Counted from the stretch's first letter, positions 9,695-37,179 are shown. The stretch: 64,000 bases of DNA from an uncultured Alphaproteobacteria bacterium (GCA_944393745.1 CALYBD010000005.1:11165-75164); one strand, 5' to 3'. Numbers and translations are program-made. Notes: generated by a model from the letters alone, not told the origin.

Positions 9695-10180
9695 ATGATT
9701 TCTTTGCCGGATCAGGCAAGTCCTGAAGAACTGCTGTCTTATGTCCGCCCGTTATATCCAAATGGGATATTTCCTTTAGGGCCGGGTTGGTTGATAGTAT
9801 TCTGTGTTTTGGGCGGTTTTGTTTTGGCGGGGATTTTGGTTTACAACAGCCCTTTTGCAAGACGCCGTCGGGAAGCATTCAAGGCTTTTGACGTTTTGCG
9901 CCGCAATTTTTTTGAAAACGGAGATCTTTCCGTTTTGGCGGCCGATGTGTCGGTTTTGATGCGCCGTACGGCTTTGGTTCGGTTCGGACGGGGAAAAACG
10001 GCGGGCTTAATCGGCCGGGAATGGACGGACTTTTTGCAGCGGACAGGAGCTGATTTAAACGAACAGGATAAACAGCTGCTGGAAAATCAGGCGTATGCGC
10101 CGCCTTTGTATGACGAAGATTTGGCGCGCGGGCGCCATTTGTTGACGACCGCACGTCAATGGCTGGAGAAAAATTTATGA
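9695..10180 (+). CDS. DUF4381-type small membrane protein, the usual first gene of bat aerotolerance operons
   Basis: 161 aa, single TM helix (LIVFCVLGGFVLAGILV). Position immediately upstream of batA, with an ATGA overlap. Confidence 0.6.
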   Translation: MISLPDQASPEELLSYVRPLYPNGIFPLGPGWLIVFCVLGGFVLAGILVYNSPFARRRREAFKAFDVLRRNFFENGDLSVLAADVSVLMRRTALVRFGRGKTAGLIGREWTDFLQRTGADLNEQDKQLLENQAYAPPLYDEDLARGRHLLTTARQWLEKNL

Positions 10181-12983: not shown

Positions 12984-14836
12984 TGAAGAATAAAATTATT
13001 TTTGCCTTTTTTATTTTGTTTGCTTTTTGTCGGACGGCCGCGGCCGGTTTTCAGGCCGATGTCAGCCGTACGGTTATTCCCGAAGGTGAAAGCTTTCAGT
13101 TGTATCTGCGTCAGGACGGCGGTGCCGATCAGCCGGATATATCCGTTTTAAACGAAGATTTTTTAATCGTTATGGAACGTAAAAGTTTCAAGTCGAGTTA
13201 TGTCAACGGTAAGACGCAAACGTTTAACGAAAATGTGTTGACATTGATTCCCAAAAAAACAGGGGAAGTGATCCTGCCGTCCATTCGTGCGGGCAAAGAA
13301 CAGACGAAACCCGTTAAACTGACGGTTATTGCCGGCGGGCAGGCTTTACCGTCTGATCCGGCGGACAGAAAGAAAGTGCAGGCGGCTCAGCCCAATGTAT
13401 TTATTCGTTCGTCGGTTGACAATAAAACGCCGTATGTCGGCCAACAGATACCTTTGACGGTCAGGTTATATTCGTTTGTTCAGACGCCGCTGTTGGACGG
13501 TGCCGTCACGCCGCCGCAGGCTGACGGTATTACGGCCGAACAGTGGGGCGATGTCAAACGGTCGCGGGAAACGGTCAACGGCAGAACGTATGATGTTTTG
13601 GAATATAAGTTTTTGTTATTTGCCCAAAAAAGCGGCCGTATCACCTTGTCCCCCGTTCATTTCAGGGGGACGATCAGCGATCCGGAAGGACGCGATGATA
13701 CCATGGAGGATCTGTTCGGTTTCGGCGGTTCGGACTTTTTTTCGGGCTTTTTCGGCCAGAAAAATATAGCGGTGCAATCGCCCGGCATTACTTTGGACGT
13801 TCAGGGAAAGCCGGATCAGGCAGATACGGGCAATATATGGTTGCCGGCTTTGGACGTTGCCGTTTCCGAAGATTTTACCCCGCCGAAACAAACGATTGCG
13901 TTGGGCGAAGCGTTGACCCGGACGGTGACGGTTATGGCCGCCGGCGTGCGTGATACGCAGCTGCCCGATTTGTTGTTTCCGGACGGGACGGATTATAAAC
14001 AATATCCCGGAAAAACGGATTCAAAAAACCTGTTTGACAACAACGGCATCGTAGGGGTAAAGACCCGCCAGATTGTCTTTATGCCGCTCAAAGCCGGGCA
14101 GATTACTTTGCCGCAGATGGAAATTCCCTGGTTTGACGTTAAATCAAAGCAGATTAAAAAAGCCGTTTTGCCGGCGCGTACGATCACGGTAACACAAACG
14201 GAAGGATCTGCGGTTGTTCCCGAAAATCCGTCTGTTTCCGCAAAAACCGTTTTACCACCGCCTTCGCCCGTTTCCGAACGCCGGGATCCGGCAGAATCCG
14301 AATTTGCACAGGCTTTTTCCCAACCGCCGGAAAATACGGCCGAACAGCAGGCCGCGGCGGCTTTTTGGGAAAAATATGCCGCTTTGCCGCCCGGATATTT
14401 GTTTTTGGCAGGCATCTTGGCCGGCGGCGCGGCTGTCGGCATTTTATGGCTGATTTTCTATTTTCTGCTTTTTAAAAGAAAACCGGCGGCTGAAGTGCAA
14501 AACAACCGTTCGGCCTTGCAATACCGCGAAAGCATTAATCGGGTGAAAACGGCCTGTCTGTCCGGTTCCGCCGAACAAACAAAACAGGCTTTGTTGGACT
14601 TAGGGGGCGTGTTATGGCCGCAAAATCCGCCGTTGACGCTTTCGGATCTGGCAAATCGGTTTGAAGATGAGTCTTTGTCAAAACAGATGGAAAATCTGAA
14701 TCGAGCCTTGTATGCCGGCGCGGCAGCCGATTGGAATGCAAAAGAATTCTGGGCGATTTTTAAAAAAATTGACGCCAAAGCTCAAAAACAAAAACACAAT
14801 GAAAAAATTCCGGTCCCGCCGCTTTATCCCGATTAA
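12983..14836 (+). CDS. batD: BatD, the secreted or membrane-anchored aerotolerance-operon protein
   Basis: 617 aa protein with a signal peptide, a C-terminal TM helix (LFLAGILAGGAAVGILWLIFYFLLF), and the size and operon position typical of BatD. Confidence 0.7.
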   Translation: MKNKIIFAFFILFAFCRTAAAGFQADVSRTVIPEGESFQLYLRQDGGADQPDISVLNEDFLIVMERKSFKSSYVNGKTQTFNENVLTLIPKKTGEVILPSIRAGKEQTKPVKLTVIAGGQALPSDPADRKKVQAAQPNVFIRSSVDNKTPYVGQQIPLTVRLYSFVQTPLLDGAVTPPQADGITAEQWGDVKRSRETVNGRTYDVLEYKFLLFAQKSGRITLSPVHFRGTISDPEGRDDTMEDLFGFGGSDFFSGFFGQKNIAVQSPGITLDVQGKPDQADTGNIWLPALDVAVSEDFTPPKQTIALGEALTRTVTVMAAGVRDTQLPDLLFPDGTDYKQYPGKTDSKNLFDNNGIVGVKTRQIVFMPLKAGQITLPQMEIPWFDVKSKQIKKAVLPARTITVTQTEGSAVVPENPSVSAKTVLPPPSPVSERRDPAESEFAQAFSQPPENTAEQQAAAAFWEKYAALPPGYLFLAGILAGGAAVGILWLIFYFLLFKRKPAAEVQNNRSALQYRESINRVKTACLSGSAEQTKQALLDLGGVLWPQNPPLTLSDLANRFEDESLSKQMENLNRALYAGAAADWNAKEFWAIFKKIDAKAQKQKHNEKIPVPPLYPD

Positions 14837-22452: not shown

Positions 22453-23157
22453 ATGGAAAAAAGTATGTCAAATGCATCTGTTCGCCAAAATATCAAGAAA
22501 ACCGCGGCTTTGGGAATGCCTGCGGAAAACGGCGGGCGTTTGTCCATGTTTATGTGGTTATCGCGTTTTTTCAGTGTATTGTGCTTTTTTTTAGTAACTT
22601 CGCTTGCCGTTCTGGCATTGTCATTAATACATATTACCAAGGAATTGGAAGTAAATTCCGTTTTGGTAACAGCGCCGACGTATTCGGAAAATCTGGCTTA
22701 TTTCGAACCGCTGCACCCGGATATGCCCGCGATGGATATTCTGGCGGAAATGTTCGTGCGCCAGTATGTGACGGCCAGAAATAACGTTTGGCGTCATGCT
22801 CAGGAAATGCGCCGTATGTGGGGACGCGGCGGTATTGTTCGTTATATGTCGACACCTGCTGTATATGAAGAATTCGCCCGTCGGGAAGTCCCCAGATACT
22901 TTCCCGATCCGGCACAGCCGCCAACGGTTATGGTTGAAACGGATATTAAACGGATTATTAAAGAGGGATGGAACAGCTGGCAGATTTTCTTTGATACCCG
23001 TCGAATGGATACATCGATCAGTATGCCGGTTGTTGAACATTGGATTGCTACCATACAGTTTCGTTATTATTCCGATAACGCCATTATGTTTTTCCGTTTG
23101 CGCAATCCGTTGGGATTTACGGTAACGCAGTATCATTTGGCTCGTCAGAAAATATAA
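22453..23157 (+). CDS. virB8: T4SS VirB8-like protein, paralog 1 (bitopic, NTF2-like periplasmic domain)
   Basis: N-terminal TM helix (FFSVLCFFLVTSLAVLALSLI) and a C-terminal RLRNPLGFTVTQYHL matching the VirB8 NPLGF-V--Y signature. Collinear with paralog 2. Confidence 0.7.
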   Translation: MEKSMSNASVRQNIKKTAALGMPAENGGRLSMFMWLSRFFSVLCFFLVTSLAVLALSLIHITKELEVNSVLVTAPTYSENLAYFEPLHPDMPAMDILAEMFVRQYVTARNNVWRHAQEMRRMWGRGGIVRYMSTPAVYEEFARREVPRYFPDPAQPPTVMVETDIKRIIKEGWNSWQIFFDTRRMDTSISMPVVEHWIATIQFRYYSDNAIMFFRLRNPLGFTVTQYHLARQKI

Positions 23158-23180: not shown

Positions 23181-23379
23181 AATGAAAAAAAGACTGTTCG
23201 GAAGAATATTTTTTATAACGGCTTTATGCGCTGTTGTAAGTGCCTGCGGCTCTATTTACGAAAAGGAACCTGTCGGGATCGGTCCCGATATTTCGGAATT
23301 AAAGCGTTCTCCGTGCGCTTGCATGCTTTTAAAGCTGCCGGCGGGCTTGCCCGACTGGATAACGACGGCTCAGGGATAA
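23181..23379 (+). CDS. virB7: Small lipoprotein, VirB7-like by size and position
   Basis: 66 aa; the lipobox, RBS and placement between two virB8 paralogs match the rvh-type cluster layout as I recall it. No strong sequence signature beyond that. Confidence 0.4.
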
Positions 23380-23393
23380 CAGGATAAAAAAAT

Positions 23394-24164
23394 ATGCCAA
23401 CTCCGGTAAAATCAAAACAACAGCTGACAGTGAAAACGCCTGAAAACAACCCGGTTCAAAAGGGTTCCGTTTCCGGCGGATCCAATTTGAAAAAAAATGT
23501 TGTTCGTCAACCCGAACGTGAAGAAATTTCAATTGATCAGCTGCGGGAACGGCGTTATTTGTGGACGGCGCGGGCTTTTGCAATCGTGTCGGCCGTGGCG
23601 TTATGCGTTAATTTGGTTTTGTTGTTGGCGATTATTCATATTATGCCGCTGAAACGCGTTGAACCGTTTTTGCTGACGTTTCAGAACAGAGACGAACAGG
23701 TTGTAAAAATTCGTCCTTTGGCAAAGGATATGGCGGCGGAAGATATTATTTCCGAAGCCATGATCAGACAGTATGTGTTGTTAAGAAATACGATGATTTC
23801 GGACGTTGACGAGATGTCTTTCCGTTGGGGGCAGGACGGTCCTTTGCGCTGGATGTCTTCGGCGCAGGTGTATAACCAGTTTGCCAAAACGGTCAAGGAT
23901 TGGCTGTCAAGAATTAAACTGGAAGGCTTAACGCGCGAAGTCCGAATTGAATCCGTTGTTCGAAATCAAAACATCTGGCTGGTTTATATTGTGACGCGCG
24001 ATATGCTGCCGGAAGCCGAAGAACCCGCTATTTCGCGTTGGCGTATCCGTTTGTCGGTCAAATACTTTGCCAAAGATCAAAAAGAAGTCAAATATATTGA
24101 CCGGTTAAAGAATCCTTTGGGGTTTGCCGTTGACGGATATGCGATTGAAAGTGCTAACGATTAA
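23394..24164 (+). CDS. virB8: T4SS VirB8-like protein, paralog 2
   Basis: TM helix (AFAIVSAVALCVNLVLLLAII) and C-terminal RLKNPLGFAVDGYAI. An EAMIRQYV region parallels paralog 1 (EMFVRQYV). Confidence 0.75.
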   Translation: MPTPVKSKQQLTVKTPENNPVQKGSVSGGSNLKKNVVRQPEREEISIDQLRERRYLWTARAFAIVSAVALCVNLVLLLAIIHIMPLKRVEPFLLTFQNRDEQVVKIRPLAKDMAAEDIISEAMIRQYVLLRNTMISDVDEMSFRWGQDGPLRWMSSAQVYNQFAKTVKDWLSRIKLEGLTREVRIESVVRNQNIWLVYIVTRDMLPEAEEPAISRWRIRLSVKYFAKDQKEVKYIDRLKNPLGFAVDGYAIESAND

Positions 24165-24176
24165 AGAAGGTGTCCC

Positions 24177-25706
24177 GTGAAAAGAAATTTGAAAATTCGC
24201 CTTTTTGCTTTTGTTTCGTTGTCTTTTTGTTTTTTGCCGCAGGTCGTTTCGGCACAACAGACGGCTGCGCGTGAATCCATGGATGCGGCGATTGAACAGT
24301 CAAACGGGCAGTATTCTGAAATCGATATGCCGTTTTGGTCTTTGGGAATGCAACAAAAAGCATGGAATAAACCGATGGAACATATGGGGGAAGGCCAGTC
24401 CAAGCCGGGATATTCCAGATATTTTTGGACGCCTGATCTGGTTTTGCCGCTGCGGATTCGGGAAGGTATGCATACGCTGATTAACTTTCCGTCATGGGAA
24501 TTGATTGAAAATGTTTTTCTGGGAAATGAAAGTGCTTTCGGGGCACAGAAGGTCGCGCAGAATGCGTTGATGGTTTTTGCGGCAAATGTTGACCTGGTCG
24601 GTATGGATACGAATATGATTGTTTTCGGCCGTTCCGGGAACAGATATGTTTTTTATTTAAGAAGCGAAACCTTTAATACGGACAGAATAACCAATTCCGT
24701 CGTGGATATCGTTGTCAATGATGCAAAGTTTGTTCCCGATGATTCCGGGCAAACGCCGTTTGCTTCCGGTGCAGTCGGATCCGGCGCCGTTTCTTTTGGC
24801 GGGTCAGGCGGTTTCGGCGGCGCTTTGCGCGGCGCAAAAAAGACAACAACAAAAAACGGAACGGAAGACTGGTTGGCCGATATTGAAGTCGACCCCGAAA
24901 AATTGCGTTTTGATATTGATGTGTTTGTGCCTAATCCGGCGGATATGGAAATTGCGCCCGAACGCGTCTGGCGTGATGAGATTTTCACGTATATTGATTT
25001 CGGTCCGAAGGCGTTGACAATGACGGAACGTCCGATTGTTAATCTTTTGTCTCAGGGATCCGAAGTGCCGATCGGCTTCAGGACGCGCGGCCCCAACGGC
25101 CGACTGATGGTTGTGGAAGGCATCGGCGATTTGGTTTTGCGTAACGGGAAACGGATTTTATGCCTGAAGATCAGAAAAGATCCTGCTTTTGGCACCGAAT
25201 GGGTAGAATACGAAAAATCCGTTCAGCCGGAATGGTCGCCGGGGCCGATGATAACAACGGGCGGCTATAATGCTCCGTCTGCCGGCGGTGTTGCAAACAA
25301 TGCCGATAATACAAATATGCAGGCGGCAAATGCCATGATGATGCAGGCAGGACCGAACGGTATATTATCGGCCAATCAGATTGCTCAGTTTTCACAGCAG
25401 GGACGGGACAGTTCCCGCATGATCCGCCGTTATCGCGACACGTCTATGGAAACGATTGCGGTTGAACTGGGATCAGACAGCGAAATTGCTCCGTTGGAAC
25501 AGAAATGGGACAATATTTCACGTAAAAACAGGGATTTGCTTAATGCGTATGAACCGTATTACTCTGTTGACGCAGTCGCGGAAGGCGAATCAAAAGATTT
25601 ATTCCGTCTGCGCATCGGTCCGGTCGACAGCATTGAAGCAGGGGATAAACTATGTAATCAATTAGGTCGCCGCGGGGTGACGTGTATGGTTGTGCGGACA
25701 CAATGA
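24177..25706 (+). CDS. virB9: T4SS VirB9-like outer-membrane core protein, extended with a Gly/Ser-rich linker and a C-terminal SPOR-like segment
   Basis: GTG start with RBS; signal peptide (FLPQVVSA). A VirB9 N-domain pattern (HTLINFPSWELIENVFLGNE...MVFAANVDLVGMDTNMIVFGRSGNRYVFYL) and a C-domain pattern (YIDFGPK...IVNLL...GRLMVVEGIGDLVLRNGKRILCLKI). The terminal LFRLRIGPVDSIEAGDKLCNQLGRRGVTCMVV resembles a SPOR second half. Confidence 0.7.
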   Translation: MKRNLKIRLFAFVSLSFCFLPQVVSAQQTAARESMDAAIEQSNGQYSEIDMPFWSLGMQQKAWNKPMEHMGEGQSKPGYSRYFWTPDLVLPLRIREGMHTLINFPSWELIENVFLGNESAFGAQKVAQNALMVFAANVDLVGMDTNMIVFGRSGNRYVFYLRSETFNTDRITNSVVDIVVNDAKFVPDDSGQTPFASGAVGSGAVSFGGSGGFGGALRGAKKTTTKNGTEDWLADIEVDPEKLRFDIDVFVPNPADMEIAPERVWRDEIFTYIDFGPKALTMTERPIVNLLSQGSEVPIGFRTRGPNGRLMVVEGIGDLVLRNGKRILCLKIRKDPAFGTEWVEYEKSVQPEWSPGPMITTGGYNAPSAGGVANNADNTNMQAANAMMMQAGPNGILSANQIAQFSQQGRDSSRMIRRYRDTSMETIAVELGSDSEIAPLEQKWDNISRKNRDLLNAYEPYYSVDAVAEGESKDLFRLRIGPVDSIEAGDKLCNQLGRRGVTCMVVRTQ

Positions 25707-28700
25707 ACGAAGATTTACTCAGCTCATCAGACAGATATTTAAAAAAGTCCAACAGAACACTGTTGATTGTCGGGATTATAGCCTTTTTGGCTTTTCTGAC
25801 AGGCGTCATCGTGCTGTTGAGCGGAGAAGAAGAACGTAAAAAAGATGCCGAAGTAACGATTGAAGGATCAGCGGAAAGCTCCAGCAGTATCGTTGGCGGC
25901 GACGCCGATACCTTTAGTCTGCCCGAAGAGGCAACAGCATCTACGGTGCGTTTGGTCGTTACCCCCGAAACCATGCGGTTTGATCAGGTCGTTCTGGGAA
26001 CAATGGCGGAAGGAACATTGACGTTATCGGCTTCTTCCGGGCGGATCAGCGTGACGGCAATCGAATTTGAAAATAAACAGGAAGACGGCTTTGTTCTGGA
26101 AAATAAATGTCGTAAAGATATTGTCCTGACCGGAGACGTCACCTGTAACGTTGTCGTGCGCTGGGAACCGAAAACGGCGCGGACGATTCAGTCTAATCTG
26201 GCTGTTCGCTGGACAGATGAAACGTTCGGCGGTATCGGGCGAAAAGTTATTGTTCCCATTTCGGCAATGGCAATTGATACCAGTATGTGCGGCGTTTGTG
26301 ATGAAGTGCCGGGCAGCAGCGGATCCATGCTGGATCAGCTGCGTCAAAAAGGTCGTGTCATTTTGGGGCCTGACGGGAAACCGATCGGATATGCCGACGA
26401 AAACGGTGTTGTTTACGGGTTGGACGGCAAAAGAATCGGAACTTTGCGCGAAGACGGAACCGTTGTTGATGATCAGGGCTATGTGATCGGTGTTGCGGAA
26501 GGCAGCAGAATAGCCATCGGTCCGAACGGGGAAATCCTGGGTACGATTCTGCCGGACGGCCGCGTAATAGATAAAGACGGCCGTTTGATCGGTTATGCTT
26601 TGCCGGACGGTACCATTGTTGATGAAAACGGAAACGTGATCGGATCTGCGATTAAAACGGGAATCGCGTATGATAAAAACGGCAATCCGATCGGGCGGAT
26701 TATGCCGGACGGGACGGTTGTCGACGATGAAGGCAACGTGATCGGCTATGTGAATCCGGACGGGACGATCGTTGATGCCAACGGTAATATTATCGGATCC
26801 GTTGCGCCGCAGGGAACGGTGGTTGACGCTTCGGGAAAACCGCTGGGAATTGTTATGCCGGACGGGACGGTCGTTGATGCTGACGGCAATATTATCGGCC
26901 GGACTTTACCAAACGGCTTTGTCGTTGACAGAGACGGCAATATTATCGGCCGTGTTGTCAAAGAAGGATTGGCAATCGGGCCCGGTTGCCGCATGATCGG
27001 CAGAATCAGTACGGACGGTTCCGTTATGTCTTCAAACAGACAGGTGGGGCGTTTAACGGCTTCCATGACCGTTGTCGATATGGCGGGCAATCCGATCGGC
27101 GGCTATGTTGAAGAAGGCGCTCTGATTGACTGGGCGGGGAAAATTATCGGTAAGGTCGATCAGGACGGACACCCCGTTTCTTTTAAAGGGGATCCTCTGG
27201 GGTGTTTAACGCCGTACGGGACGGTTGTTAACGATTCTGAAGAAATTATTGCCGCCGTTTTGCCGAAAGGAACGGTTGTCGGAACGCAGTGCGGCGTTGT
27301 CGGACGTGTTATGCCGGACGGCAGTGTTGTCGGCGATGGTCAGATTAAAGGACGCATTTTGCCGGATAAATCATTTTTATCGACAGAAGGGAAAATTGCG
27401 GGCGCTTTGGCGCGTCAGAATGTCGGTGTCGGACCGGGGTGTATGTCTTTGGGATATGTCAATCTTGACGGACAGGTTATGACAGCCAAGGGCGAACTGG
27501 TCGGCTGTCTGGCGGCGAACGGGGAAATCCTTGATAATCAAAAAGTCGTTTTGGGAAAAATATTGGATTCCGCCGTTGCCATAAATCCCGACGGGCGGGT
27601 TGTCGGCGTAATGGATCCGGTCGGCAGAATTCAGGATAAAGAAGGAAAAATTTTAGGCTGTGCGGATCCTGACGGGCTGGTTATTAACTCCAAAAACGAA
27701 TCGGTCGGCATAATGATGCCGACGGGCGGTGTTTTGGATCGTGACGGGCGTACAATCGGCTGGGTTATGCCGGACGGTTCTGTTTCAAACGGAAAAAACA
27801 GCACTGTCGGTAAAGTCATGCCGGACGGGACTGTCATTGACCTGACCGGACAAACGGTTGCTCGTGTCGCACCGTATAAAGGACTGGCTTTAAGAGGCAG
27901 CTGTGAACCGGTCGGCAACGTTTTGATTGACGGGCGTGTCGTTGATAATGAATTTAAACGGACGGCTTATATCCGCATGGACGACAGTCTGGCAAACGAA
28001 GCCGGTGATTTTGTCGGCCGTATCGCTTATGGCGCCAGAGGCATCAGTGCCAAAGACGTTTATTTGGGGGCAACGGGAAATGACGGCACGTTATATAATC
28101 CGGCCGGCGAAAAAATCGGTTGCTTGCGCCCGGATTCTTTATTCGTTGACGCAGAAAATAAATTTTTGGGCGCGGCTCTTCCCGAAGGAGTGGCTGTTAA
28201 TGATAAATCAGAACTGTATGCCCGAGGCGATTCGATCGCCAAAGCGCTGGATCTGAAAGGATCGGAATTTATCGGTTCGGTGACGCTCAGCGGCTTTATC
28301 AAAGAAGGCGACAGAATTTCCGGCGGAATTATTCCGGACAGAGCTGATGTTTTGGATATTAAAACCAGTGAAAAAATCGGTCGTTTATTGCCTGACGGTA
28401 CGGCGCTGGATTTGCTCAGCCGTTATTTGGGACGGTTAAGAATGCCCAGTGGGGAAATTGTCAATAAAGACGGCCGCGTCGTCGGTAAGATCTTTGTCGG
28501 TATGCGCCAAGTGATCGGCCCGAACGGAGAAATTCTGGGGGTGGTGATGCCGGACGGTACCGTGGTAGATGCTTCGGGTCGCGTTATCGGCAAAGCCGAT
28601 TTGAACGGTAAAGTCGTTGATAAAGACGGACGGGTCATCGGTGAAGTCATTCCGGTCGGCCAGCCGATTATCGGCCCTGACGGGAAAATTATCGGTTACG

Positions 28701-31700
28701 TCGGTGTCGACGGCCAGATTGTTGACAAAGACGGGAATCCCGTTTTAGGTCCCGACGGAAAGCCTTTGCGTTATCGTGCCGGCGGTTCTGTCGTTGAAGA
28801 CGGCGGAGAAGTGATCGGAAAAATCGGCGAGACTCTGGAACGTCTGGTTTATGATGAAAACGGCAATGTGATCGGCCGGGTATTGCCGGACGGAACGGTC
28901 GTTGATTTGGAAGGCAACGTGATCGGCACGATGCGTCCGGACGGCACGGTGGTGGATAAAGACGGCAATGTGATCGGCAGGGCAGGTCAGCCGGAACGTC
29001 TGGTTTATGATGAAAACGGTAATTTAATCGGTCGCGTATTGCCGGACGGAACGGTCGTCGATCTGAAAGGCAACGTGATCGGCCGTGTTCAGGACGACGG
29101 TACGGTGACGGCTTTGGGCTCTAAAGTGATCGGCTATACGGTCAAAGACGGTCTGGGACTGAACTTTAAAAATGAAATTATCGGTAAAATCAATTCTTCC
29201 GGTCAGCTTAAAGAACCCGGTTCGGATAAATCTTTGGGTTTTTTGCAGGCAGATGACACCATTACGGACGCAACGAATACCGTTATCGGCAAAGGGGTTG
29301 TTAATGCCGTTCCCATTGGTCTGCAATGTCAGATGCTGGGGACGATTGACGATAACGGGCAGGTTATTGATACAACGGGACGGCAGATCGGCCGGCTGAA
29401 TTATGATCGTTCTTTGGTTAATGCTTCGAATGCTCAGATCGGTTTGGCTTTGGGGCAGGAATCCATTATTAATGAACCGTGTGAGATTATCGGGCAGATT
29501 ACGACCGAAGGAAAAGCAGTCGATACCAAAGGTCAGGAAATCGGCTGTGTTGATTTTGAAGGGCTGGTAAAAGATAAAAACGGAAAACGACTGGGACGAA
29601 TCGTTCAGAAAGGACAGGTGCGCGGCCCCGATGATCAGATTATCGGCAGGATCGTTGCCAACGGTGAAGCGTTGGGATCTCAGGGGGACGTGTTAGGGTG
29701 TTTTTCGATTGACGGTGCCGTTTTGGATAAAAATAAAAAAATCCTGGGGGTTTCTGCCGACATGAAATATGCCATTGACGATCAGGGGAAAGTCATTGCT
29801 CATATTTTGGGCGGCACGTACGGCGTTAATCCTGCAGGCGGATCTTTTGTCGGTATGTTAAACGGGCAAAATCTGATCGGCGCAGAAAATCGTCAGTTGG
29901 GCGTACTTGTTCCTGCCGGCAGAAAAGTCATTGCAACGGACGGTAAGATTGTCGGAACCGTTCTGCCGCGCGGGCAGGTTCATAATGACCGCGGAGAAGA
30001 TGTCGGTTATGCCACTTCGTCCATGCGAGTTTTAACCGCAGATCGTAAATTTTTGGGACGCGTCGTCCCGATCGGCGAAGAATGTAAAGACGGTAAAAAC
30101 AACGTTGTCGGTACCGTCCACTTTGACGGCACGATTATTGACGAAAGAAAACAGGTCTTAGGACGTTTGCTGGCCAGCGGCCAGGCTTTGGACAATTCCG
30201 GTGCTCATTTATGTATGATTTCTTTGATCAGTACAAATGATGACGGGTCTTTGTTCCCGAAAGGGTTGATCGGAAAAATGGTTTACGGTCCGGACGGAAA
30301 GCCGTTGGGTGTTATCGGTGAAGACGGGTTTATTCGTGATGCAAACGGTAATATTATCGGACGTGTTTTGCCGGACGGCACGGTCGTCGATTTGGACGGC
30401 AACGTGATCGGCAAGGCTTATCCGAAAGGGGCTGTTTTCAGTCCTGACGGTAAATTTTTGGGTATTGTTGACGCAGACGGGTATTTGCGGGACGAAAACG
30501 GCAATATCATCGGCAGAATGTTGCCGGACGGTACCGTTGTCGATATGAACGGTAACATTATCGGCCGGGCTTTGCAGGAAGACGGTATTGTCGATTCAAA
30601 AGGGAATTTCCTGACAAAAGCAGGCGAAGACCGTTTGGTTTATGATGCCAACGGCAACGTGATCGGACGTGTTTTGCCGGACGGTACCGTTGTTGATTTA
30701 AAGGGGAACGTTATCGGCAGAATGTTGCCGGACGGTACGGTCGTTGATGCAAACGGCAATGTGATCGGTCGGGCGGGGCCGCCCGAGCGTTTGGCCTATG
30801 ATGCGAACGGCAATGTGATCGGTCGGGTATTGCCGGACGGTACCGTTGTTGATTTTAAAGGCAATGTAATCGGAAGAGTACAGCCCGACGGGACAATTGT
30901 TGATGCGACCGGGAAAGTTATCGGTCGGGCCGGGCCGCCTGTTGAGGCAAAAAATGTTCGTATTGCTGTCGGGCGTGACGGTAAATTTTTGGGTGTTGTC
31001 GGTGAAGACGGTCTTGTCCGTGACGAAAACGGCAATGTGATCGGCCGGGTATTGCCGGACGGAACGGTTGTTGACATGAACGGAAATGTAATCGGTTCTG
31101 TGATTGAAGGAGAACCGATGCGTGATGCAAACGGCAATATTATCGGTGTTATCATGCCGGACGGCCGCGTTGTTGATTTAGACGGCAATGTGATCGGTCG
31201 CATTAATGCAAACGGGGAAATCGTTGATGCGGACGGAACGGTTTTGGGCACATGGCGCGGCGGGAAACTGACGGCAATGAGCGATAAGCTGCAGAAAAAA
31301 CGTTTTGCGTTCGGCAAGGACGGCAAAAGAATCGGTATGATTATGCCGGACGGAACGGTTGTTGATGAAAACGGCAATATTATCGGTCGCGTTGATGAAG
31401 ACGGTAATGTGGTCGATTTAGACGGCAACATCATCGGGACGGTTGAAGAACCGTCTGCGGGAGGGCCGGCAGAAGAAGATAAAAAAGAAGGCAGTGTTTC
31501 CATTTTTGGTGCTTTTGATCCGGAAAATTACCGGTATCGCGGTAAATCTTTGGGATCCGGCGGCGGTACGGGAAAAGGGGAACGTTATGATCCCGCCCGC
31601 ATAAAACAGCTTCGGGCATTGCAATTGGCTTATCGTCGTCAGATCAGACCCGGACGGGGGATCGGCATTGCCTCGACCGAAGAAGATTTGCTGAAAAAGC

Positions 31701-32728
31701 AAAAACGCAGCAAAAGTTGGGCTGATTTGGGTGTGCTGAAGAATGTATCATCATATCGTGTCAATATGGATAATATGATTTTGGCGGATAAAGCCATACC
31801 GGCCGTTTTGGCGCGTTCCATTGATACGGAACAGGAAGATATTCCCATTTCCGCAATTGTTGAACGCAACATTTATTCGGAATCGGGACGTAAAATTATT
31901 ATTCCCGCCGGCAGCCGTGTTATTGGCGAACTCAGCGGTTCTTCGGCCAGTGAAGAAGTCGGAGCGGCTTCAAAAGTCGAAATTTCCTGGACACGCCTGA
32001 TTCGTCCGGACGGTGCGGCGTTCCAGTTTGACGAAGGATCTTCGGGTGATGCTTCCGGTCGTGCGGGCGTCGGCGCGTATATGGACCGACAGTTGATGAA
32101 GAAATACGGACTGCCGATGGTTCAGTCGACAATTACTTCTGCAATTTTGTATGCCATGGCAACGGATGACGCGGCCGAAGTCGGATCAGAAGGTGAAGTT
32201 GCCATGTCGGGTCGTCAGCAGGCGGCTGAAGATGCACGTACCAGATTTTCCGATACGATGCAGCAGATTTTTGATGATATCATCAGTGAAACGTCACAGT
32301 TAAAAACGCGCTTGTTTGTTCCTTCCGGTACACGAATTACGATTTTTGCAAACGCGGATTTATGGCTGCGCAGTGAAGCAGAAGATGAAGATGAAGCGTC
32401 TATCGGCAAGAAAGATGTTTTGATTGATCCAGATAAAGATGATGACAGAAATGTTGTTGATGATCCTTCTACGATTTCTTCGGGTACGACGACTCCGCAT
32501 GATCCGAACGCTCAAAATGTCCAAAATGATCCAAATAACTTGCAACAACAGCAGCAAATTTACTATAATAATTATGCTGGTCAGCAGGCGCCGCAACAGC
32601 AACAGCCTCCGCAGGGCAGATTGATCGACAGTAATAAGCAGCAACAACAACAGCAGCAGCCACTTCCGCCGCCGATTATACAGGAAAAGAAAGAAGAACC
32701 GGTTGATCCCGTTCCCGAACTTTTCTAA
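25703..32728 (+). CDS. virB10: Giant T4SS VirB10-like protein (about 2,340 aa): N-terminal TM anchor, a beta-rich domain, an internal repeat array of about 1,700 aa, a canonical VirB10/TrbI C-terminal domain, and a Q/P-rich tail
   Basis: Likely ATG at 25703 overlapping the virB9 stop (ATGA); the track starts at the GTG at 25682. TM helix LLIVGIIAFLAFLTGVIVLL. The C-terminal block IIPAGSRVIGELSG...KVEISWTRLIRPDGAAFQFDEGSSGDASGRAGVGAYMDRQLMKKYG matches the conserved VirB10/TrbI signature (IPAG-R-IGE...W-RLI-PDG....G.D..GRAG..G). Confidence 0.8.
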   Translation: MNEDLLSSSDRYLKKSNRTLLIVGIIAFLAFLTGVIVLLSGEEERKKDAEVTIEGSAESSSSIVGGDADTFSLPEEATASTVRLVVTPETMRFDQVVLGTMAEGTLTLSASSGRISVTAIEFENKQEDGFVLENKCRKDIVLTGDVTCNVVVRWEPKTARTIQSNLAVRWTDETFGGIGRKVIVPISAMAIDTSMCGVCDEVPGSSGSMLDQLRQKGRVILGPDGKPIGYADENGVVYGLDGKRIGTLREDGTVVDDQGYVIGVAEGSRIAIGPNGEILGTILPDGRVIDKDGRLIGYALPDGTIVDENGNVIGSAIKTGIAYDKNGNPIGRIMPDGTVVDDEGNVIGYVNPDGTIVDANGNIIGSVAPQGTVVDASGKPLGIVMPDGTVVDADGNIIGRTLPNGFVVDRDGNIIGRVVKEGLAIGPGCRMIGRISTDGSVMSSNRQVGRLTASMTVVDMAGNPIGGYVEEGALIDWAGKIIGKVDQDGHPVSFKGDPLGCLTPYGTVVNDSEEIIAAVLPKGTVVGTQCGVVGRVMPDGSVVGDGQIKGRILPDKSFLSTEGKIAGALARQNVGVGPGCMSLGYVNLDGQVMTAKGELVGCLAANGEILDNQKVVLGKILDSAVAINPDGRVVGVMDPVGRIQDKEGKILGCADPDGLVINSKNESVGIMMPTGGVLDRDGRTIGWVMPDGSVSNGKNSTVGKVMPDGTVIDLTGQTVARVAPYKGLALRGSCEPVGNVLIDGRVVDNEFKRTAYIRMDDSLANEAGDFVGRIAYGARGISAKDVYLGATGNDGTLYNPAGEKIGCLRPDSLFVDAENKFLGAALPEGVAVNDKSELYARGDSIAKALDLKGSEFIGSVTLSGFIKEGDRISGGIIPDRADVLDIKTSEKIGRLLPDGTALDLLSRYLGRLRMPSGEIVNKDGRVVGKIFVGMRQVIGPNGEILGVVMPDGTVVDASGRVIGKADLNGKVVDKDGRVIGEVIPVGQPIIGPDGKIIGYVGVDGQIVDKDGNPVLGPDGKPLRYRAGGSVVEDGGEVIGKIGETLERLVYDENGNVIGRVLPDGTVVDLEGNVIGTMRPDGTVVDKDGNVIGRAGQPERLVYDENGNLIGRVLPDGTVVDLKGNVIGRVQDDGTVTALGSKVIGYTVKDGLGLNFKNEIIGKINSSGQLKEPGSDKSLGFLQADDTITDATNTVIGKGVVNAVPIGLQCQMLGTIDDNGQVIDTTGRQIGRLNYDRSLVNASNAQIGLALGQESIINEPCEIIGQITTEGKAVDTKGQEIGCVDFEGLVKDKNGKRLGRIVQKGQVRGPDDQIIGRIVANGEALGSQGDVLGCFSIDGAVLDKNKKILGVSADMKYAIDDQGKVIAHILGGTYGVNPAGGSFVGMLNGQNLIGAENRQLGVLVPAGRKVIATDGKIVGTVLPRGQVHNDRGEDVGYATSSMRVLTADRKFLGRVVPIGEECKDGKNNVVGTVHFDGTIIDERKQVLGRLLASGQALDNSGAHLCMISLISTNDDGSLFPKGLIGKMVYGPDGKPLGVIGEDGFIRDANGNIIGRVLPDGTVVDLDGNVIGKAYPKGAVFSPDGKFLGIVDADGYLRDENGNIIGRMLPDGTVVDMNGNIIGRALQEDGIVDSKGNFLTKAGEDRLVYDANGNVIGRVLPDGTVVDLKGNVIGRMLPDGTVVDANGNVIGRAGPPERLAYDANGNVIGRVLPDGTVVDFKGNVIGRVQPDGTIVDATGKVIGRAGPPVEAKNVRIAVGRDGKFLGVVGEDGLVRDENGNVIGRVLPDGTVVDMNGNVIGSVIEGEPMRDANGNIIGVIMPDGRVVDLDGNVIGRINANGEIVDADGTVLGTWRGGKLTAMSDKLQKKRFAFGKDGKRIGMIMPDGTVVDENGNIIGRVDEDGNVVDLDGNIIGTVEEPSAGGPAEEDKKEGSVSIFGAFDPENYRYRGKSLGSGGGTGKGERYDPARIKQLRALQLAYRRQIRPGRGIGIASTEEDLLKKQKRSKSWADLGVLKNVSSYRVNMDNMILADKAIPAVLARSIDTEQEDIPISAIVERNIYSESGRKIIIPAGSRVIGELSGSSASEEVGAASKVEISWTRLIRPDGAAFQFDEGSSGDASGRAGVGAYMDRQLMKKYGLPMVQSTITSAILYAMATDDAAEVGSEGEVAMSGRQQAAEDARTRFSDTMQQIFDDIISETSQLKTRLFVPSGTRITIFANADLWLRSEAEDEDEASIGKKDVLIDPDKDDDRNVVDDPSTISSGTTTPHDPNAQNVQNDPNNLQQQQQIYYNNYAGQQAPQQQQPPQGRLIDSNKQQQQQQQPLPPPIIQEKKEEPVDPVPELF
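26350..31450 (+). repeat. In-frame tandem repeat array inside virB10: on the order of 100 units of about 17 aa (consensus LPDGTVVDxxGNVIGRx, two G-x-(V/I)-(V/I) half-units), with higher-order units of about 50 aa
   Basis: Visible directly in the translation (for example RVLPDGTVVDLKGNVIGRMLPDGTVVDANGNVIGRAGPPERLAYDANGNVIGR...) and at DNA level, with related copies at 28848-29085 and 30625-30950. The repeat generates many spurious antisense ORFs. Confidence 0.9.
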
Positions 32729-32746: not shown

Positions 32747-33724
32747 ATGAGTATGGATTCTTTTCAGGTTTTAAGATCGACATTGCGTTATCTGTCATAT
32801 TGGTATGAACAAGATAACGTCGAAGAAGTCGCGATTAACCGTCCGAACGAAATTTGGTTGCGTTTGCGCGGACGCAGGGCTCATCCTTGGGCATGCCAGC
32901 AGGACGCCAATCTGTCCAGAACGTATCTGACGGACATCATGCATATTATCGCCAACACGTTTGAACTGCCGTTTGATCCCGAACAGGGATCGCCGGCCGT
33001 GTATGCCACGCTGCCGGGCGATCACCGTTTTACGGGAATTGCGGGCAAAAACGTTATGTATGATAACGAGGATCTGACCGGCGGTATTGCCATGTGCGTT
33101 CGTGTTCATTCCGATGATGTGAAATTCGGATTGGGGGATTACGGCCTGAAATCGGGGGAACGCCTGCAAAAGCTTAATAAATTGAAAGAAGTTGAAAATC
33201 CGGAAGATCCGTATGAACGCCTGATTTTATCAATTAAGCGCGGCGACCATATTTTGGTTTCCGGGGCAACGGCAACCGGTAAAACGACATTTTTGAATAA
33301 CCTGCTGACCATTTTGGATTCGCATAAACGGGTAATTACGATTGAAGATACCCGCGAATTAATTGTGCCGCATCCCAACCATGTACATTTGGTGTTATCG
33401 CGTACGGAACAAACAAACACAATGACATATCCGAAATTGATTGACCTGGTTGTTCGTTTTACGCCGGATGCGATTATCGGCGGGGAAATTTCAACGGCTA
33501 ATGCCGGGGCGTTGTGGGAATTGATGGGATCCGGGCATGACAACTGCTTTGCGACAATTCACGCCGAAAATTCCGAAGCGGCCTATAAAGCGTTTACGGA
33601 TCGTATTCTGCATTGCTATCCGACGATTGACCGTGAAAAAACAATTGCCGAAATGCATGATAAGCTGCGGGTGGTTCAGATCAATCGTCAGGGAAATATC
33701 CGTGCCGTGACAGAAGTGACCTAA
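32747..33724 (+). CDS. virB11: T4SS ATPase VirB11 (traffic ATPase)
   Basis: Walker A GATATGKTT, Asp box IEDTRELIV, His box GSGHDNCFATIHA; 325 aa; directly downstream of virB10. Confidence 0.85.
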   Translation: MSMDSFQVLRSTLRYLSYWYEQDNVEEVAINRPNEIWLRLRGRRAHPWACQQDANLSRTYLTDIMHIIANTFELPFDPEQGSPAVYATLPGDHRFTGIAGKNVMYDNEDLTGGIAMCVRVHSDDVKFGLGDYGLKSGERLQKLNKLKEVENPEDPYERLILSIKRGDHILVSGATATGKTTFLNNLLTILDSHKRVITIEDTRELIVPHPNHVHLVLSRTEQTNTMTYPKLIDLVVRFTPDAIIGGEISTANAGALWELMGSGHDNCFATIHAENSEAAYKAFTDRILHCYPTIDREKTIAEMHDKLRVVQINRQGNIRAVTEVT

Positions 33725-35746: not shown

Positions 35747-36235
35747 TTGCTAAATTATAAAAATGAAAAGATTAAAGATGGGTTGAATATGACGGAAAAC
35801 GAAGACGTTTTTTCATGGGAAGGCGATGCCTGTCGCGATATGGTGACATATCGTTTTATTGAATTGTCCGGGACTGCTTTGGCCGTGGCGTTTGAACAGG
35901 ATCCGGAACTGCGTAAAAAATACGCTTTATGGCTGTCACAAAAAGAGATCGGAACAAAGCCGGTCATTTTATATACCTTTGAATTGGAACACGATGATGA
36001 GGTTTCTGTTTTTGCCATGCCGCGGGAAAATCATTTTCTGGTGCGGTTTCATACCTCATTGTTTGAAACATTGGTTTCAATCGTTTATGATATGGAATTA
36101 ATGAATATCCGTGCGGCCAGAATCGTGATGTTCACCGGCAAAGCTTTGTATGCCGTTTCATGGGCAGAGGCCTTGCATGACATATGGGGCGATGAGTTTA
36201 TGGCTTTGATGCGTTCAAAAGGAGATGATGCATGA
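35747..36235 (+). CDS. Hypothetical protein
   Basis: ORF with an ATGA overlap onto the downstream gene. The start may be the internal Met at 35789. No family I recognise. Confidence 0.4.
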   Translation: MLNYKNEKIKDGLNMTENEDVFSWEGDACRDMVTYRFIELSGTALAVAFEQDPELRKKYALWLSQKEIGTKPVILYTFELEHDDEVSVFAMPRENHFLVRFHTSLFETLVSIVYDMELMNIRAARIVMFTGKALYAVSWAEALHDIWGDEFMALMRSKGDDA

Positions 36236-37179
36236 TAATACGGTTTTGTATAGCTGTTCTTACAATACTTTTTTTGTCGTCCGATCCGGCTTTTGCCGCA
36301 CCGATTAAGGAAAAAAGTCCGTATCCCGTAGATAATTGCGGCGCAACATATAACAGCCAACCGTTCAGGATTGTCGGTTTTAAAGATTATCCGCCTTTTT
36401 CCTGGGGGGAATTAGATGAAAGATTTTATCAGGATACGGGGAAAAAACGTTATACATTTCACGGTTTTATTCTGGATCCTTTAAAACAGGCTCTGGCAGA
36501 TATTCATGTCAAACAAATCAGTGATCTGGCTTTTGATGATTTTAATGAGGCACAGAAAGCCATGTTGCACGGCAAAGCGGATTTGTTGTTTATCGGTTAT
36601 TATATCGATGAAAGCAAATCGGGAATGGATTATATTTATCCGGCTTATTTCGGAAATCCTTTTGTTGTTGTGTCCCGGAAAACAAAGAAAATTGACGTGG
36701 AAGATTTTTCCGGATTAAAAGGACTGAAGGGGGTCGTCCGCCGAGAAGAAGAAGTCGAACCGTTAATTCGCGGTTTGTTGCCGACGGATACAAAGCTGGA
36801 GGTTGTTGACGGTCCCGAAACGGCTTTTCGCAAGCTGCTGTCCGGCGATGTGGATTTTATGATTACCAGTCCTTATGCTGCCGATGCCGAATCGAAACGT
36901 TTTAAGGTCAAAGATAAATTGCATTTCGGAACAAAAGTGTTGCGCCATATCAAATATTTTATGGCTTTTTCGAAAATGTCGGTTTGCCGCCGTTATAAGG
37001 ATATCTTTACTCAAAAACTAGACGCGCGCATCAGAAACAAGGCGGAAATAGAAAAACTGATCCATAAATATATTGATATCTGGGTCGAAAAGCATGCCGA
37101 TGAACCGCCGCTGGAATATGTTCCCGCCAATGATACGCCTGCGGCCGCAGCTCAGCCGTCGGCCGTTCCGCAGGCCTAA
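36232..37179 (+). CDS. Periplasmic solute-binding-domain protein (amino-acid SBP family 3-like), with no transporter partner
   Basis: Signal peptide (LTILFLSSDPAFAAP); ADLLFIGYYIDESKSG...YIYPAYFGNPFVVVSRK resembles SBP_bac_3. Confidence 0.5.
   Translation: MIIRFCIAVLTILFLSSDPAFAAPIKEKSPYPVDNCGATYNSQPFRIVGFKDYPPFSWGELDERFYQDTGKKRYTFHGFILDPLKQALADIHVKQISDLAFDDFNEAQKAMLHGKADLLFIGYYIDESKSGMDYIYPAYFGNPFVVVSRKTKKIDVEDFSGLKGLKGVVRREEEVEPLIRGLLPTDTKLEVVDGPETAFRKLLSGDVDFMITSPYAADAESKRFKVKDKLHFGTKVLRHIKYFMAFSKMSVCRRYKDIFTQKLDARIRNKAEIEKLIHKYIDIWVEKHADEPPLEYVPANDTPAAAAQPSAVPQA

What the first reader, a model, noticed from the sequence alone, without database searches (positions are those of the whole stretch)
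25703..32728. Giant VirB10 (about 2,340 aa) with an internal repeat array of about 1,700 aa, analogous to CagY/DotG
Canonical VirB10 proteins are about 380-480 aa. This one keeps the N-terminal TM anchor and an unmistakable C-terminal VirB10/TrbI barrel domain (IIPAGSRVIGELSG...ISWTRLIRPDGAAFQFDEGSSGDASGRAGVGAYMDRQLMKKYG). Between them sits about 5.1 kb of in-frame tandem repeats, where VirB10 normally has only a short Pro-rich linker spanning the periplasm. From what I know, the only comparably expanded VirB10 homologs are Helicobacter CagY, whose repeat region recombines to tune T4SS function and immune evasion, and Legionella/Coxiella DotG with pentapeptide repeats. A repeat-expanded VirB10 in an rvh-like alphaproteobacterial system would be a new instance of this theme. 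It suggests a greatly lengthened or surface-exposed, possibly variable, channel component.
Basis: partly seen in the sequence, partly recalled or inferred. Interest (0 to 1): 0.9.

Follow-up and report, generated by a model that had tools for sequence, protein, structure and literature searches.

The report
Giant beta-flower-repeat VirB10 in gut Alphaproteobacteria
A core channel protein of a bacterial type IV secretion machine is about six times its normal size here because its periplasmic linker is replaced by about 100 short beta-hairpin repeats, and this giant form is conserved across dozens of uncultured gut Alphaproteobacteria, apparently undescribed.

Summary
Window 25703-32728 (+) is one intact 2,341-aa ORF lying between virB9 and virB11. 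It has an N-terminal cytoplasmic tail, one TM helix, a PapD/ASH-like Ig domain and about 1,700 aa of 17-residue repeats. It ends in a TrbI/VirB10 domain and a Q/P-rich tail finishing in PVPELF.

The repeats belong to Pfam Bflower_2 (E 3e-138). This beta-flower fold is known only from AlphaFold models and has no known function.

It is not an artefact. The identical ORF occurs on at least 6 independently assembled contigs. All 71 evaluable related genomes carry a giant version. dN/dS across the array is 0.06-0.12.

It is not CagY-like in its dynamics. DNA repeats are only 60-82% identical. Three strain alleles have the same array length. Between species, length changes are confined to two hotspots.

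A monophyletic subclade (43 species) splits the gene in mid-array. The C-terminal piece gains a Sec signal peptide, which places the array in the periplasm.

Similar arrays occur in a type IVB DotG, in Tad-pilus CpaB, and in OmpA-family and prepilin-like proteins. The best reading is a periplasmic scaffold or collar. This is a new variant of the CagY/DotG theme.

The parts
22453..23157 (+). virB8 paralog 1
   Evidence: Pfam VirB8 E 2.7e-14. Its position is conserved in related loci.
23182..23379 (+). 65-aa lipoprotein, a likely VirB7
   Evidence: It has a signal peptide and lipobox...AVVSA|C. It is called as a 65-aa gene in L085-L090. It occupies the same position as rvhB7 in Rickettsia. The VirB7 assignment is inferred from position and size only.
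23394..24164 (+). virB8 paralog 2
   Evidence: Pfam VirB8 E 8e-22.
24177..25706 (+). virB9 (509 aa) with a C-terminal SPOR peptidoglycan-binding domain
   Evidence: Pfam CagX E 1.2e-13 and SPOR E 3.8e-5. The SPOR segment is found by tblastn in all related loci whose upstream flank is present.
25703..32728 (+). Giant virB10, 2,341 aa, 246 kDa
   Evidence: Intact ORF. Identical on at least 6 independent contigs. Mass.
25703..25825 (+). Cytoplasmic tail (conserved SSSxxYLKKSNR) and single TM helix
   Evidence: Read directly from the sequence. AF2 predicts a helix at residues 4-44. The motif is conserved across the clade.
25952..26275 (+). PapD-like/ASH Ig-type beta-sandwich domain
   Evidence: AF2 pLDDT is 75-87. 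Foldseek hits HYDIN PapD-like domains (TMt 0.62-0.71) and CEP192 ASH domains. Pfam ASH is weak at E 0.007.
26348..31447 (+). Beta-flower array: about 100 units of 17 aa, 1,700 aa, 176 kDa, net charge -49
   Evidence: Pfam Bflower_2 E 2.9e-138 with 18 stretches, plus DUF3659 and Bflower. Unit consensus and periodicity. AF2 predicts all beta hairpins in blocks of about 105 aa. dN/dS is 0.06-0.12.
28769..29086 (+). Copy-number hotspot 1 (51-52-aa super-repeat of 3 units)
   Evidence: Indels between species cluster here. TRF finds an array at 28862-29085. It is 78% identical over 266 nt to hotspot 2.
30299..30961 (+). Copy-number hotspot 2
   Evidence: Indels of about 51 aa among L004-L010. TRF finds a 156-nt period with 81% matches.
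31448..31777 (+). Gly-rich and basic linker (ERYDPARIKQLRALQLAYRRQIRP)
   Evidence: Conserved in all relatives. pI is 9.8.
31778..32368 (+). TrbI/VirB10 barrel domain including the helix-loop-helix antenna region
   Evidence: Pfam TrbI E 1.8e-30. It aligns end to end with ComB10 2bhv.
32369..32728 (+). Acidic then Q/P-rich tail ending in conserved PVPELF
   Evidence: The terminal P-x-L-F is conserved in most relatives. Poly-Q length differs by one residue between strains.
32747..33724 (+). virB11 ATPase
   Evidence: NCBIfam VirB11 E 1.4e-42 and Pfam T2SSE.

Best explanation
This is a functional, chromosomally encoded VirB10 of an rvh-like type IVA secretion system in an uncultured gut alphaproteobacterium.

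The short Pro-rich periplasmic linker of ordinary VirB10 has been replaced by two modules. The first is a PapD/ASH-like Ig domain. The second is about 100 beta-hairpin repeats of 17 aa, roughly 18 beta-flower domains totalling 176 kDa.

Shown:
- The protein keeps the canonical bitopic plan: N-terminus in the cytoplasm, one TM helix, and a C-terminal TrbI barrel with an antenna region.
- The array is conserved, collinear between species and under strong purifying selection.
- In one subclade the gene is cut in mid-array, and the C-terminal half acquires a Sec signal peptide.

Inferred:
- The whole array is periplasmic. With the usual 13-16 VirB10 copies per machine, it would build a multi-megadalton periplasmic scaffold or collar between the inner-membrane complex and the outer-membrane core complex.
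- The scaffold is held together by non-covalent flower-to-flower contacts, which is why it still works as two polypeptides.
- This is the role proposed for the repeat regions of DotG and CagY.

The confidence of 0.55 refers to the scaffold/collar mechanism. The identity as a real, giant, beta-flower-repeat VirB10 I put at about 0.95.
For: Identity as VirB10:
- Pfam TrbI is above its cutoff and the gene sits between virB9 and virB11.
- Sequence homology to the solved proteins ComB10, TrwE and CagY covers the whole barrel plus antenna.

A real gene:
- The identical ORF is on at least 6 contigs.
- 71 of 71 evaluable related loci are giant: 28 fused (1,273-2,666 aa) and 43 split (sum 2,550-3,500 aa).
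- 18 full-length giants of 1,498-2,406 aa appear among the cluster representatives.

Constraint: dN/dS across the array is 0.057-0.117 against four species.

Periplasmic location:
- The positive-inside KKSNR motif followed by the TM helix.
- C-pieces start with signal peptides of the type ...ARA|QEITAIDFNG, conserved across a monophyletic clade.
- There are 18 Cys residues in recurring sequence contexts.

Scaffold role:
- Arrays of the same 17-aa unit occupy the equivalent position in a type IVB DotG, which sits in an icmL-icmK-dotG context.
- They also follow the SAF and RcpC domains of CpaB, the inner-membrane-to-secretin connector of Tad pili.
- They occur in an OmpA-family protein and in a prepilin-like protein.
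- DotG and CagY repeats have been proposed to form the periplasmic collar (10.1101/2023.03.22.533729).
Against: - No structure or localisation data exist. The organism is uncultured.
- The AF2 models have only moderate confidence (pLDDT 68-72). I could not inspect coordinates to confirm that the hairpins close into discrete flowers or how the flowers pack.
- The rest of the T4SS (VirB2, B3, B4, B6, D4) is not in the window, so the activity and substrate of the machine are unknown.
- About 18 domains per chain strung end to end would far exceed the periplasmic width. A compact packing has to be assumed.
- The collar role of DotG and CagY repeats is itself only a proposal.
Confidence: 0.55

Rival explanations
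1. The array is a peptidoglycan- or envelope-binding tether or spacer rather than a self-associating collar. In this reading the beta-flower domains bind the cell wall or membrane lipids. They fix the machine in the envelope or set the inner-to-outer-membrane distance, acting together with the SPOR domain on VirB9.
For: - VirB9 in this clade carries a conserved SPOR domain.
- Beta-flower arrays are also fused to an OmpA-family peptidoglycan-binding domain.
Against: - No binding motif or ligand has been identified.
- About 100 repeats per chain is far more than tethering would need.
- This reading is not exclusive of the scaffold model.
Confidence: 0.2
2. This is a CagY-like, surface-exposed and rapidly recombining region that tunes T4SS activity or evades host immunity.
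For: - It has the same gross architecture as CagY.
- The organisms are host-associated gut bacteria.
- Two hotspots gain or lose 51-52-aa super-repeats between species.
Against: - DNA repeats are 60-82% identical and there are no long exact repeats.
- Three strain alleles have the same array length and are 99.6% identical.
- dN/dS is 0.06-0.12.
- The array is collinear across species that share only 60-88% identity.
- Topology and the Sec-exported C-piece place it in the periplasm.
Confidence: 0.07
3. The array is an Rhs/YD-repeat shell that encapsulates a cargo. One source annotates a relative as a 'YD repeat-containing protein'.
For: - Pfam RHS_repeat E 7.6e-21 and NCBIfam YD_repeat_2x E 1.4e-29 on the whole protein.
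- The top Foldseek hits are RhsA and Tse15.
Against: - No single RHS or YD stretch is significant on its own (0 stretches).
- The period is 17 aa.
- There is no Rhs core, PAAR or toxin domain.
- Bflower_2 fits about 117 orders of magnitude better by E-value.
Confidence: 0.03
4. It is an assembly artefact or a pseudogene.
For: - In one older MAG (L001, GCA_002437805.1) the homolog is broken into ORFs of 1,916 and 468 aa.
- Most catalogue entries are fragments.
Against: - Identical sequence in at least 6 independent assemblies.
- Intact giant ORFs in 71 of 71 evaluable species.
- Strong purifying selection.
Confidence: 0.01

Closest known systems
Helicobacter pylori CagY (Cag7), 1,927 aa
   Same: A VirB10 homolog with a C-terminal TrbI-type domain (E 3e-7 to 1e-5). 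A very large repeat region sits N-terminal to that domain. It belongs to an expanded host-associated T4ASS.
   Different: - The repeat sequences are unrelated.
- CagY repeats recombine and vary between strains (PMC6761968). Here the array is stable and under purifying selection.
- The protein here is longer, at 2,341 aa and up to 2,666 aa in fused relatives.
- The locus is not a cag-type locus.
Legionella/Coxiella DotG (IcmE), 1,000 to more than 1,500 aa
   Same: A VirB10 homolog with a TM anchor, central repeats and a C-terminal TrbI domain. Its repeats have been proposed to form the periplasmic collar.
   Different: - It belongs to a type IVB system.
- Legionella repeats are a 10-aa motif whose number varies.
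- A separate DotG lineage (P0084 in L091) does use beta-flower repeats. That lineage is the closest functional parallel.
Rickettsiales rvh T4SS (RvhB10 and its islet)
   Same: Gene order B8, B7, B8, B9, B10, B11, with duplicated virB8, in a chromosomal islet flanked by housekeeping genes.
   Different: - virD4 does not follow virB11 here.
- No rvhB9-I lies upstream.
- The host is a gut alphaproteobacterium, not a member of the Rickettsiales.
- From my own knowledge, RvhB10 is of ordinary size. I did not check this here.
Beta-flower fold families (Pfam PF21784/PF21785; Durairaj et al. 2023)
   Same: A strong Bflower_2 match. The hairpin unit has turn motifs of the [DNEQ]xxG type.
   Different: The fold was described as small stand-alone domains of about 96 residues with unknown function. 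Here about 18 of them are concatenated inside a secretion-machine subunit.
Canonical VirB10, TrwE, TraF and ComB10 (about 220-480 aa)
   Same: TM anchor, C-terminal barrel with antenna, and a position between virB9 and virB11.
   Different: About six times longer. The Pro-rich linker is replaced by an Ig domain plus the array. A Q/P-rich C-terminal tail is added. NCBIfam equivalog models score below their cutoffs.

Membership tests
VirB10/TrbI family | C-terminal TrbI/VirB10 beta-barrel domain | tested here: met
   Pfam PF03743 scores 106.7 bits against a cutoff of 35. phmmer against PDB gives ComB10 1e-17, TrwE 3e-9, CagY and Xac VirB10.
VirB10/TrbI family | Bitopic topology: N-terminal cytoplasmic tail and a single TM helix | tested here: met
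   KKSNR is followed by a 23-residue hydrophobic segment. AF2 predicts a helix at 4-44. This is a prediction only.
VirB10/TrbI family | Encoded between virB9 and virB11 in a virB-type cluster | tested here: met
   The arrangement is conserved in all related loci.
VirB10/TrbI family | Short Pro-rich periplasmic linker after the TM helix | tested here: not met
   It is replaced by the Ig-like domain and the 1,700-aa array. P/Q-rich sequence is found only in the C-terminal tail.
VirB10/TrbI family | Equivalog-level match to NCBIfam T4SS_VirB10 or ComB10 | tested here: not met
   95 bits against a cutoff of 220, and 114 bits against 300. It is a divergent member, homologous at domain level only.
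Beta-flower (Pfam CL0395: PF21785/PF21784) | Sequence match above the gathering threshold | tested here: met
   Bflower_2 scores 452.6 bits against 38, with 18 stretches. Bflower scores 144.6 bits against 25.
Beta-flower (Pfam CL0395: PF21785/PF21784) | Closed 4-, 5- or 6-fold shallow barrel of beta hairpins | tested here: inconclusive
   AF2 gives regular hairpins (5-residue and 3-residue strands per 17 aa) in blocks of about 105 aa separated by low-pLDDT breaks. Coordinates could not be inspected. No PDB counterpart was found.
CagY-type variable VirB10 | Near-identical DNA repeats that allow in-frame recombination | tested here: not met
   Repeat identity is 60-82%. The best long pair is 78% over 266 nt.
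CagY-type variable VirB10 | Length variation between strains | tested here: not met
   Three distinct alleles of 2,340 or 2,341 aa differ only by one Gln in the tail. The sample is small.
rvh-type T4SS | Islet order B8, B7, B8, B9, B10, B11 with duplicated virB8 | tested here: met
   compared with PMC4676284.
rvh-type T4SS | virD4 after virB11; duplicated B4, B9 and B6; no virB5 | tested here: inconclusive
   trkH follows virB11 and there is no virD4 in the window. Other islets lie outside the window and could not be fetched.
Rhs/YD repeat proteins | Individually significant YD/RHS repeats, an Rhs core and a cocoon fold | tested here: not met
   No stretch passes on its own. Foldseek TM-score is 0.09.
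DotG/IcmE (T4BSS) | icmL-icmK-dotG context and 10-aa repeats | tested here: not met
   The window has a virB8, virB9, virB11 context and the repeat unit is 17 aa.

The most novel reading that the evidence does not exclude
Beta-flower arrays may be a general, modular periplasmic building block that unrelated trans-envelope machines have recruited repeatedly. The examples found here are T4A VirB10, T4B DotG, Tad-pilus CpaB, a pseudopilin-like protein and an OmpA-family protein.

In this clade, 13-16 copies of an 18-flower chain would build a megadalton collar or cage around the T4SS stalk. The cage would be held together non-covalently, which is why evolution could cut the gene in two.

If true, this would give the first functional context for the beta-flower fold. 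It would also offer a tractable, well-folded model for the still-unresolved collar of the Cag and Dot/Icm systems.
Probability: 0.4. Interest if true: 0.8.

Novelty: new variant of a known kind. Interest (0 to 1): 0.7.

Why it matters
Repeat-expanded VirB10 proteins (CagY, DotG) are central to two of the best-studied pathogenic T4SSs. Their repeat regions have never been resolved, and their role is debated: collar, spring or immune decoy.

This is a third, independent and larger expansion, and it differs in useful ways:
- It is built from a repeat that AlphaFold predicts as regular beta hairpins.
- It is evolutionarily stable.
- It is widespread in commensal gut Alphaproteobacteria of humans and livestock.
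- Nature has already run a domain-splitting experiment on it, in the fission subclade.

It also attaches a concrete cellular context to the beta-flower fold, which until now was a function-less curiosity from the AlphaFold database.

There is a practical point too. Gene callers and protein catalogues systematically fragment or miss these genes. In one NCBI MAG an antisense ORF was called instead. T4SS surveys of gut MAGs therefore probably mis-annotate them.

Tried and rejected
- Assembly collapse or artefact. Rejected: identical sequence in at least 6 assemblies and diverged DNA repeats.
- CagY-like recombination. Rejected on DNA identity, strain alleles and dN/dS.
- Rhs/YD cocoon. Rejected.
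- Protein-catalogue searches with the C-terminal and N-terminal parts returned only fragments (up to 724 aa and up to 357 aa). These first looked like a mid-size family. Inspection showed they all start inside the array.
- Mapping the fission point with short local alignments failed, because generic repeat similarity dominates. Only the coarse blastp mapping to window aa about 800-1150 is usable.
- A weak phmmer hit of the array to PDB 9das, a 'flagellin hook IN motif' protein (E 6e-4), was not pursued.
- Literature searches for VirB10 together with beta-flower, DUF3659, YD repeat or RF32/CAG-239 found no description.
- No tRNA or Rfam features occur in the window.

Full report
**1. Observation**

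The window contains an uninterrupted ORF at 25682-32728 (+). The biologically sensible start is the ATG at 25703. It overlaps the virB9 stop codon in an ATGA arrangement, and public gene calls use it, giving 2,341 aa. The calculated mass is 246 kDa.

Pfam places a TrbI/VirB10 domain at the C-terminus, at 106.7 bits against a cutoff of 35. phmmer against PDB sequences finds ComB10 (1e-17), TrwE, CagY and Xanthomonas VirB10. The ComB10 alignment runs through the whole barrel and the helix-loop-helix antenna region.

The N-terminus is a short tail (SSSDRYLKKSNR) followed by a 23-residue hydrophobic helix.

Residues 216-1915 are a 17-aa repeat with consensus G-N-V-I-G-R-V-L-P-D-G-T-V-V-D-x-[DN]. 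Identity autocorrelation is 0.246 at lag 17 against a background of 0.079, with further peaks at 34 and 51.

**2. The gene is real**

- At the DNA level the repeats are only 60-82% identical. The best long pair is 78% over 266 nt. Short-read collapse is not expected.
- The nucleotide-identical gene is present on at least 6 contigs from different samples and assemblers. Two further alleles differ by 8-10 amino acids.
- A scan of one genome per GTDB species found 575 genomes with a related TrbI domain. I examined the best 80.
- In all 71 loci that are not cut by a contig end, the virB10 locus is giant.
- Nei-Gojobori dN/dS between the window and four species is 0.057-0.117 over the array. That is as low as, or lower than, the value for the TrbI domain.
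- A library of 1.84 billion cluster representatives holds 18 full-length relatives of 1,498-2,406 aa.

**3. What the parts are**

- The repeats match Pfam Bflower_2 (E 2.9e-138, 18 stretches), Bflower and DUF3659. The beta-flower fold was defined in 2023 from AlphaFold models only. It is a shallow barrel of 4-6 beta-hairpin petals, of unknown function, placed in one Pfam clan with the Tubby domain (PMC10584680).
- My AF2 model of 406 array residues (pLDDT 72) shows a regular pattern of one 5-residue and one 3-residue strand per unit. Low-confidence breaks occur about every 105 residues. I could not inspect coordinates, so closure into flowers is not verified.
- Between the TM helix and the array lies a beta-sandwich (pLDDT 75-87). 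It matches PapD-like/ASH domains of HYDIN and CEP192, with TMt 0.62-0.71.
- After the TrbI domain comes an acidic and then Q/P-rich tail. It ends in PVPELF, a terminus conserved as P-x-L-F in most relatives.

**4. Genomic context**

The neighbours are two virB8 paralogs, a 65-aa lipoprotein lying between them, and virB9. A likely identity for the lipoprotein is VirB7. The virB9 carries a C-terminal SPOR domain. The giant virB10 and virB11 follow.

Housekeeping genes flank the cluster on both sides: a DEAD-box helicase and a hydrolase upstream, trkH and flaF downstream, and further out uvrB, pfk, hom, recJ and ffh.

The order matches the Rickettsia islet rvhB8-II | rvhB7-rvhB8-I-rvhB9-II-rvhB10-rvhB11 | rvhD4 (PMC4676284), except that no virD4 follows here.

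The related genomes are MAGs labelled Alphaproteobacteria, 'Azospirillum sp.', Proteobacteria bacterium CAG:495 and Candidatus Scatocola. The MAG titles point to human (HGUT, Hadza), sheep, roe deer, yak, rabbit ('Lapin') and chicken gut sources.

**5. How the array evolves**

Orthologs at 60-88% identity are collinear with the window protein. Length differences are concentrated in two places, aa about 1030-1135 and about 1540-1750. There, 51-52-aa super-repeats of three units are gained or lost. These are also the only stretches that TRF detects.

Within the species, three alleles have the same array length. The array is therefore an old, diverged and position-specifically conserved structure. 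It is not a CagY-type recombination cassette (for CagY and DotG see PMC6761968).

**6. A natural fission**

In 43 of the 71 loci the virB10 locus is two genes:

- The N-piece is 1,037-1,574 aa. It carries the tail, the TM helix, the Ig domain and repeats.
- The C-piece is about 1,400-2,100 aa. It starts with a hydrophobic signal peptide and an A-x-A-type site directly before the conserved sequence QEITAIDFNGDLLGKV. More repeats and the TrbI domain follow.

In an NJ tree of the TrbI region all split forms make one clade and all fused forms lie outside it. This is consistent with a single fission of an ancestrally fused gene.

This is the strongest mechanistic clue, for two reasons:

- The C-terminal half of the array is exported by Sec, so the array is periplasmic.
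- A covalent connection from the inner-membrane anchor to the outer-membrane barrel is dispensable.

The fission point maps only coarsely, to window aa about 800-1150.

**7. The same array in other machines**

Among the closest array-bearing proteins that are not members of this clade, Pfam and genomic context identify four kinds:

- A DotG/IcmE of a type IVB system, with TM helix, Bflower repeats and TrbI domain, 700-914 aa. It is encoded after icmL and icmK.
- CpaB/RcpC of a Tad pilus locus. The SAF and RcpC domains are followed by a beta-flower array, 780-900 aa. It is encoded next to the secretin, the ATPase and tadB/tadC.
- A protein with a prepilin N-methylation motif.
- An OmpA-family protein.

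All of these are periplasmic or envelope-spanning proteins.

**8. Mechanism**

Shown: domain order, predicted topology, conservation, fission, and recurrence in periplasmic connectors.

Inferred: with the usual 13-16 VirB10 copies per machine, the arrays would contribute about 2.3-2.8 MDa of beta-flower domains in the periplasm. About 18 domains per chain cannot be accommodated end to end, so they must pack. The most plausible packing is a ring or cage around the stalk. That is the collar role proposed, though never resolved, for DotG and CagY repeats (10.1101/2023.03.22.533729).

A peptidoglycan- or lipid-tethering role is a serious alternative or complement. The SPOR domain on VirB9, the OmpA fusion and the Tubby clan relationship all point that way.

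**9. Novelty**

Full-text searches found no paper that links VirB10 with beta-flower, DUF3659 or YD repeats, or that describes T4SSs of these gut Alphaproteobacteria. Protein catalogues mostly hold fragments. The 2,341-aa product has no Pfam hit on record.

At 2,341 aa, and up to 2,666 aa fused or 3,500 aa split, these proteins exceed CagY at 1,927 aa.

I classify it as a new variant of a known kind, namely repeat-expanded VirB10. Four traits make it distinctive:

- the repeat fold;
- the evolutionary stability of the array;
- the fission subclade;
- the parallel use of the same array in DotG and CpaB.

Noticed in passing
window 23182-23379 (+): A 65-aa ORF between the two virB8 genes has a lipoprotein signal and lipobox (…AVVSA|CGS…). 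It is a likely VirB7 and sits in the same position as rvhB7 in Rickettsia. It has no Pfam hit.
   Followed up: partly
window 24177-25706 (+), SPOR at about 25560-25703: VirB9 is 509 aa and carries a C-terminal SPOR peptidoglycan-binding domain. The domain is found in every related locus whose upstream flank is present. I am not aware of SPOR on other VirB9 proteins; that rests on my own knowledge and was not checked.
   Followed up: partly
L045 3103-6519 and about 6554-11116 (Proteobacteria bacterium CAG:495), plus 42 other loci: The giant virB10 is naturally split into a TM-anchored N-piece and a C-piece carrying a signal peptide. The split forms make a monophyletic clade.
   Followed up: yes
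L091 4585-7269: A type IVB DotG/IcmE, encoded after icmL and icmK, has central repeats made of beta-flower units rather than the Legionella 10-aa motif.
   Followed up: partly
L092 1349-4051: A Tad-pilus CpaB/RcpC of 900 aa carries a beta-flower array after its SAF and RcpC domains. It is encoded next to the secretin, the TadA-like ATPase and tadB/tadC.
   Followed up: partly
L001 4264-11302 (GCA_002437805.1): The homolog is broken into ORFs of 1,916 and 468 aa. The public gene call instead took a 1,489-aa antisense ORF inside the array. No comparably long antisense ORF exists in the window (longest is 235 aa), so the antisense call is spurious.
   Followed up: partly
window 32369-32728: The Q/P-rich C-terminal tail ends in PVPELF, and a terminal P-x-L-F is conserved in most relatives. 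The poly-Q tract differs by one residue between strains. The function is unknown. A C-terminal aromatic residue is reminiscent of outer-membrane protein targeting signals.
   Followed up: no
window 26348-31447: The protein has 18 Cys in all. 14 lie in the array in two recurring contexts (G-x-x-C-x-x-x-G and [IL]-G-C) and 4 lie in the N-terminal region. This suggests periplasmic disulfides. The turn motifs D-x-[DN]-G-N and P-D-G-T are rich in Asp, Asn and Gly and could bind Ca2+.
   Followed up: no
window 2558-5787 (-): Two large overlapping-end ORFs of 557 and 531 aa have no Pfam hit. They lie in a region of lower G+C (0.40-0.42 against about 0.48 for the window).
   Followed up: no
window 9695-14836 (+): A Bat-like operon: DUF4381, a VWA protein, a VWA+TPR protein and BatD. 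The related aerotolerance operon is best known from Bacteroides.
   Followed up: no
window 35747-37179 (+): Two ORFs of 162 and 315 aa have no Pfam or NCBIfam hit. They recur a short distance downstream of virB11 in many related loci, near flaF. Whether they relate to the T4SS or to the flagellum is unknown.
   Followed up: no
window 56447-59269 (-): A 940-aa HEAT/Armadillo-repeat protein, which is unusual for a bacterium.
   Followed up: no
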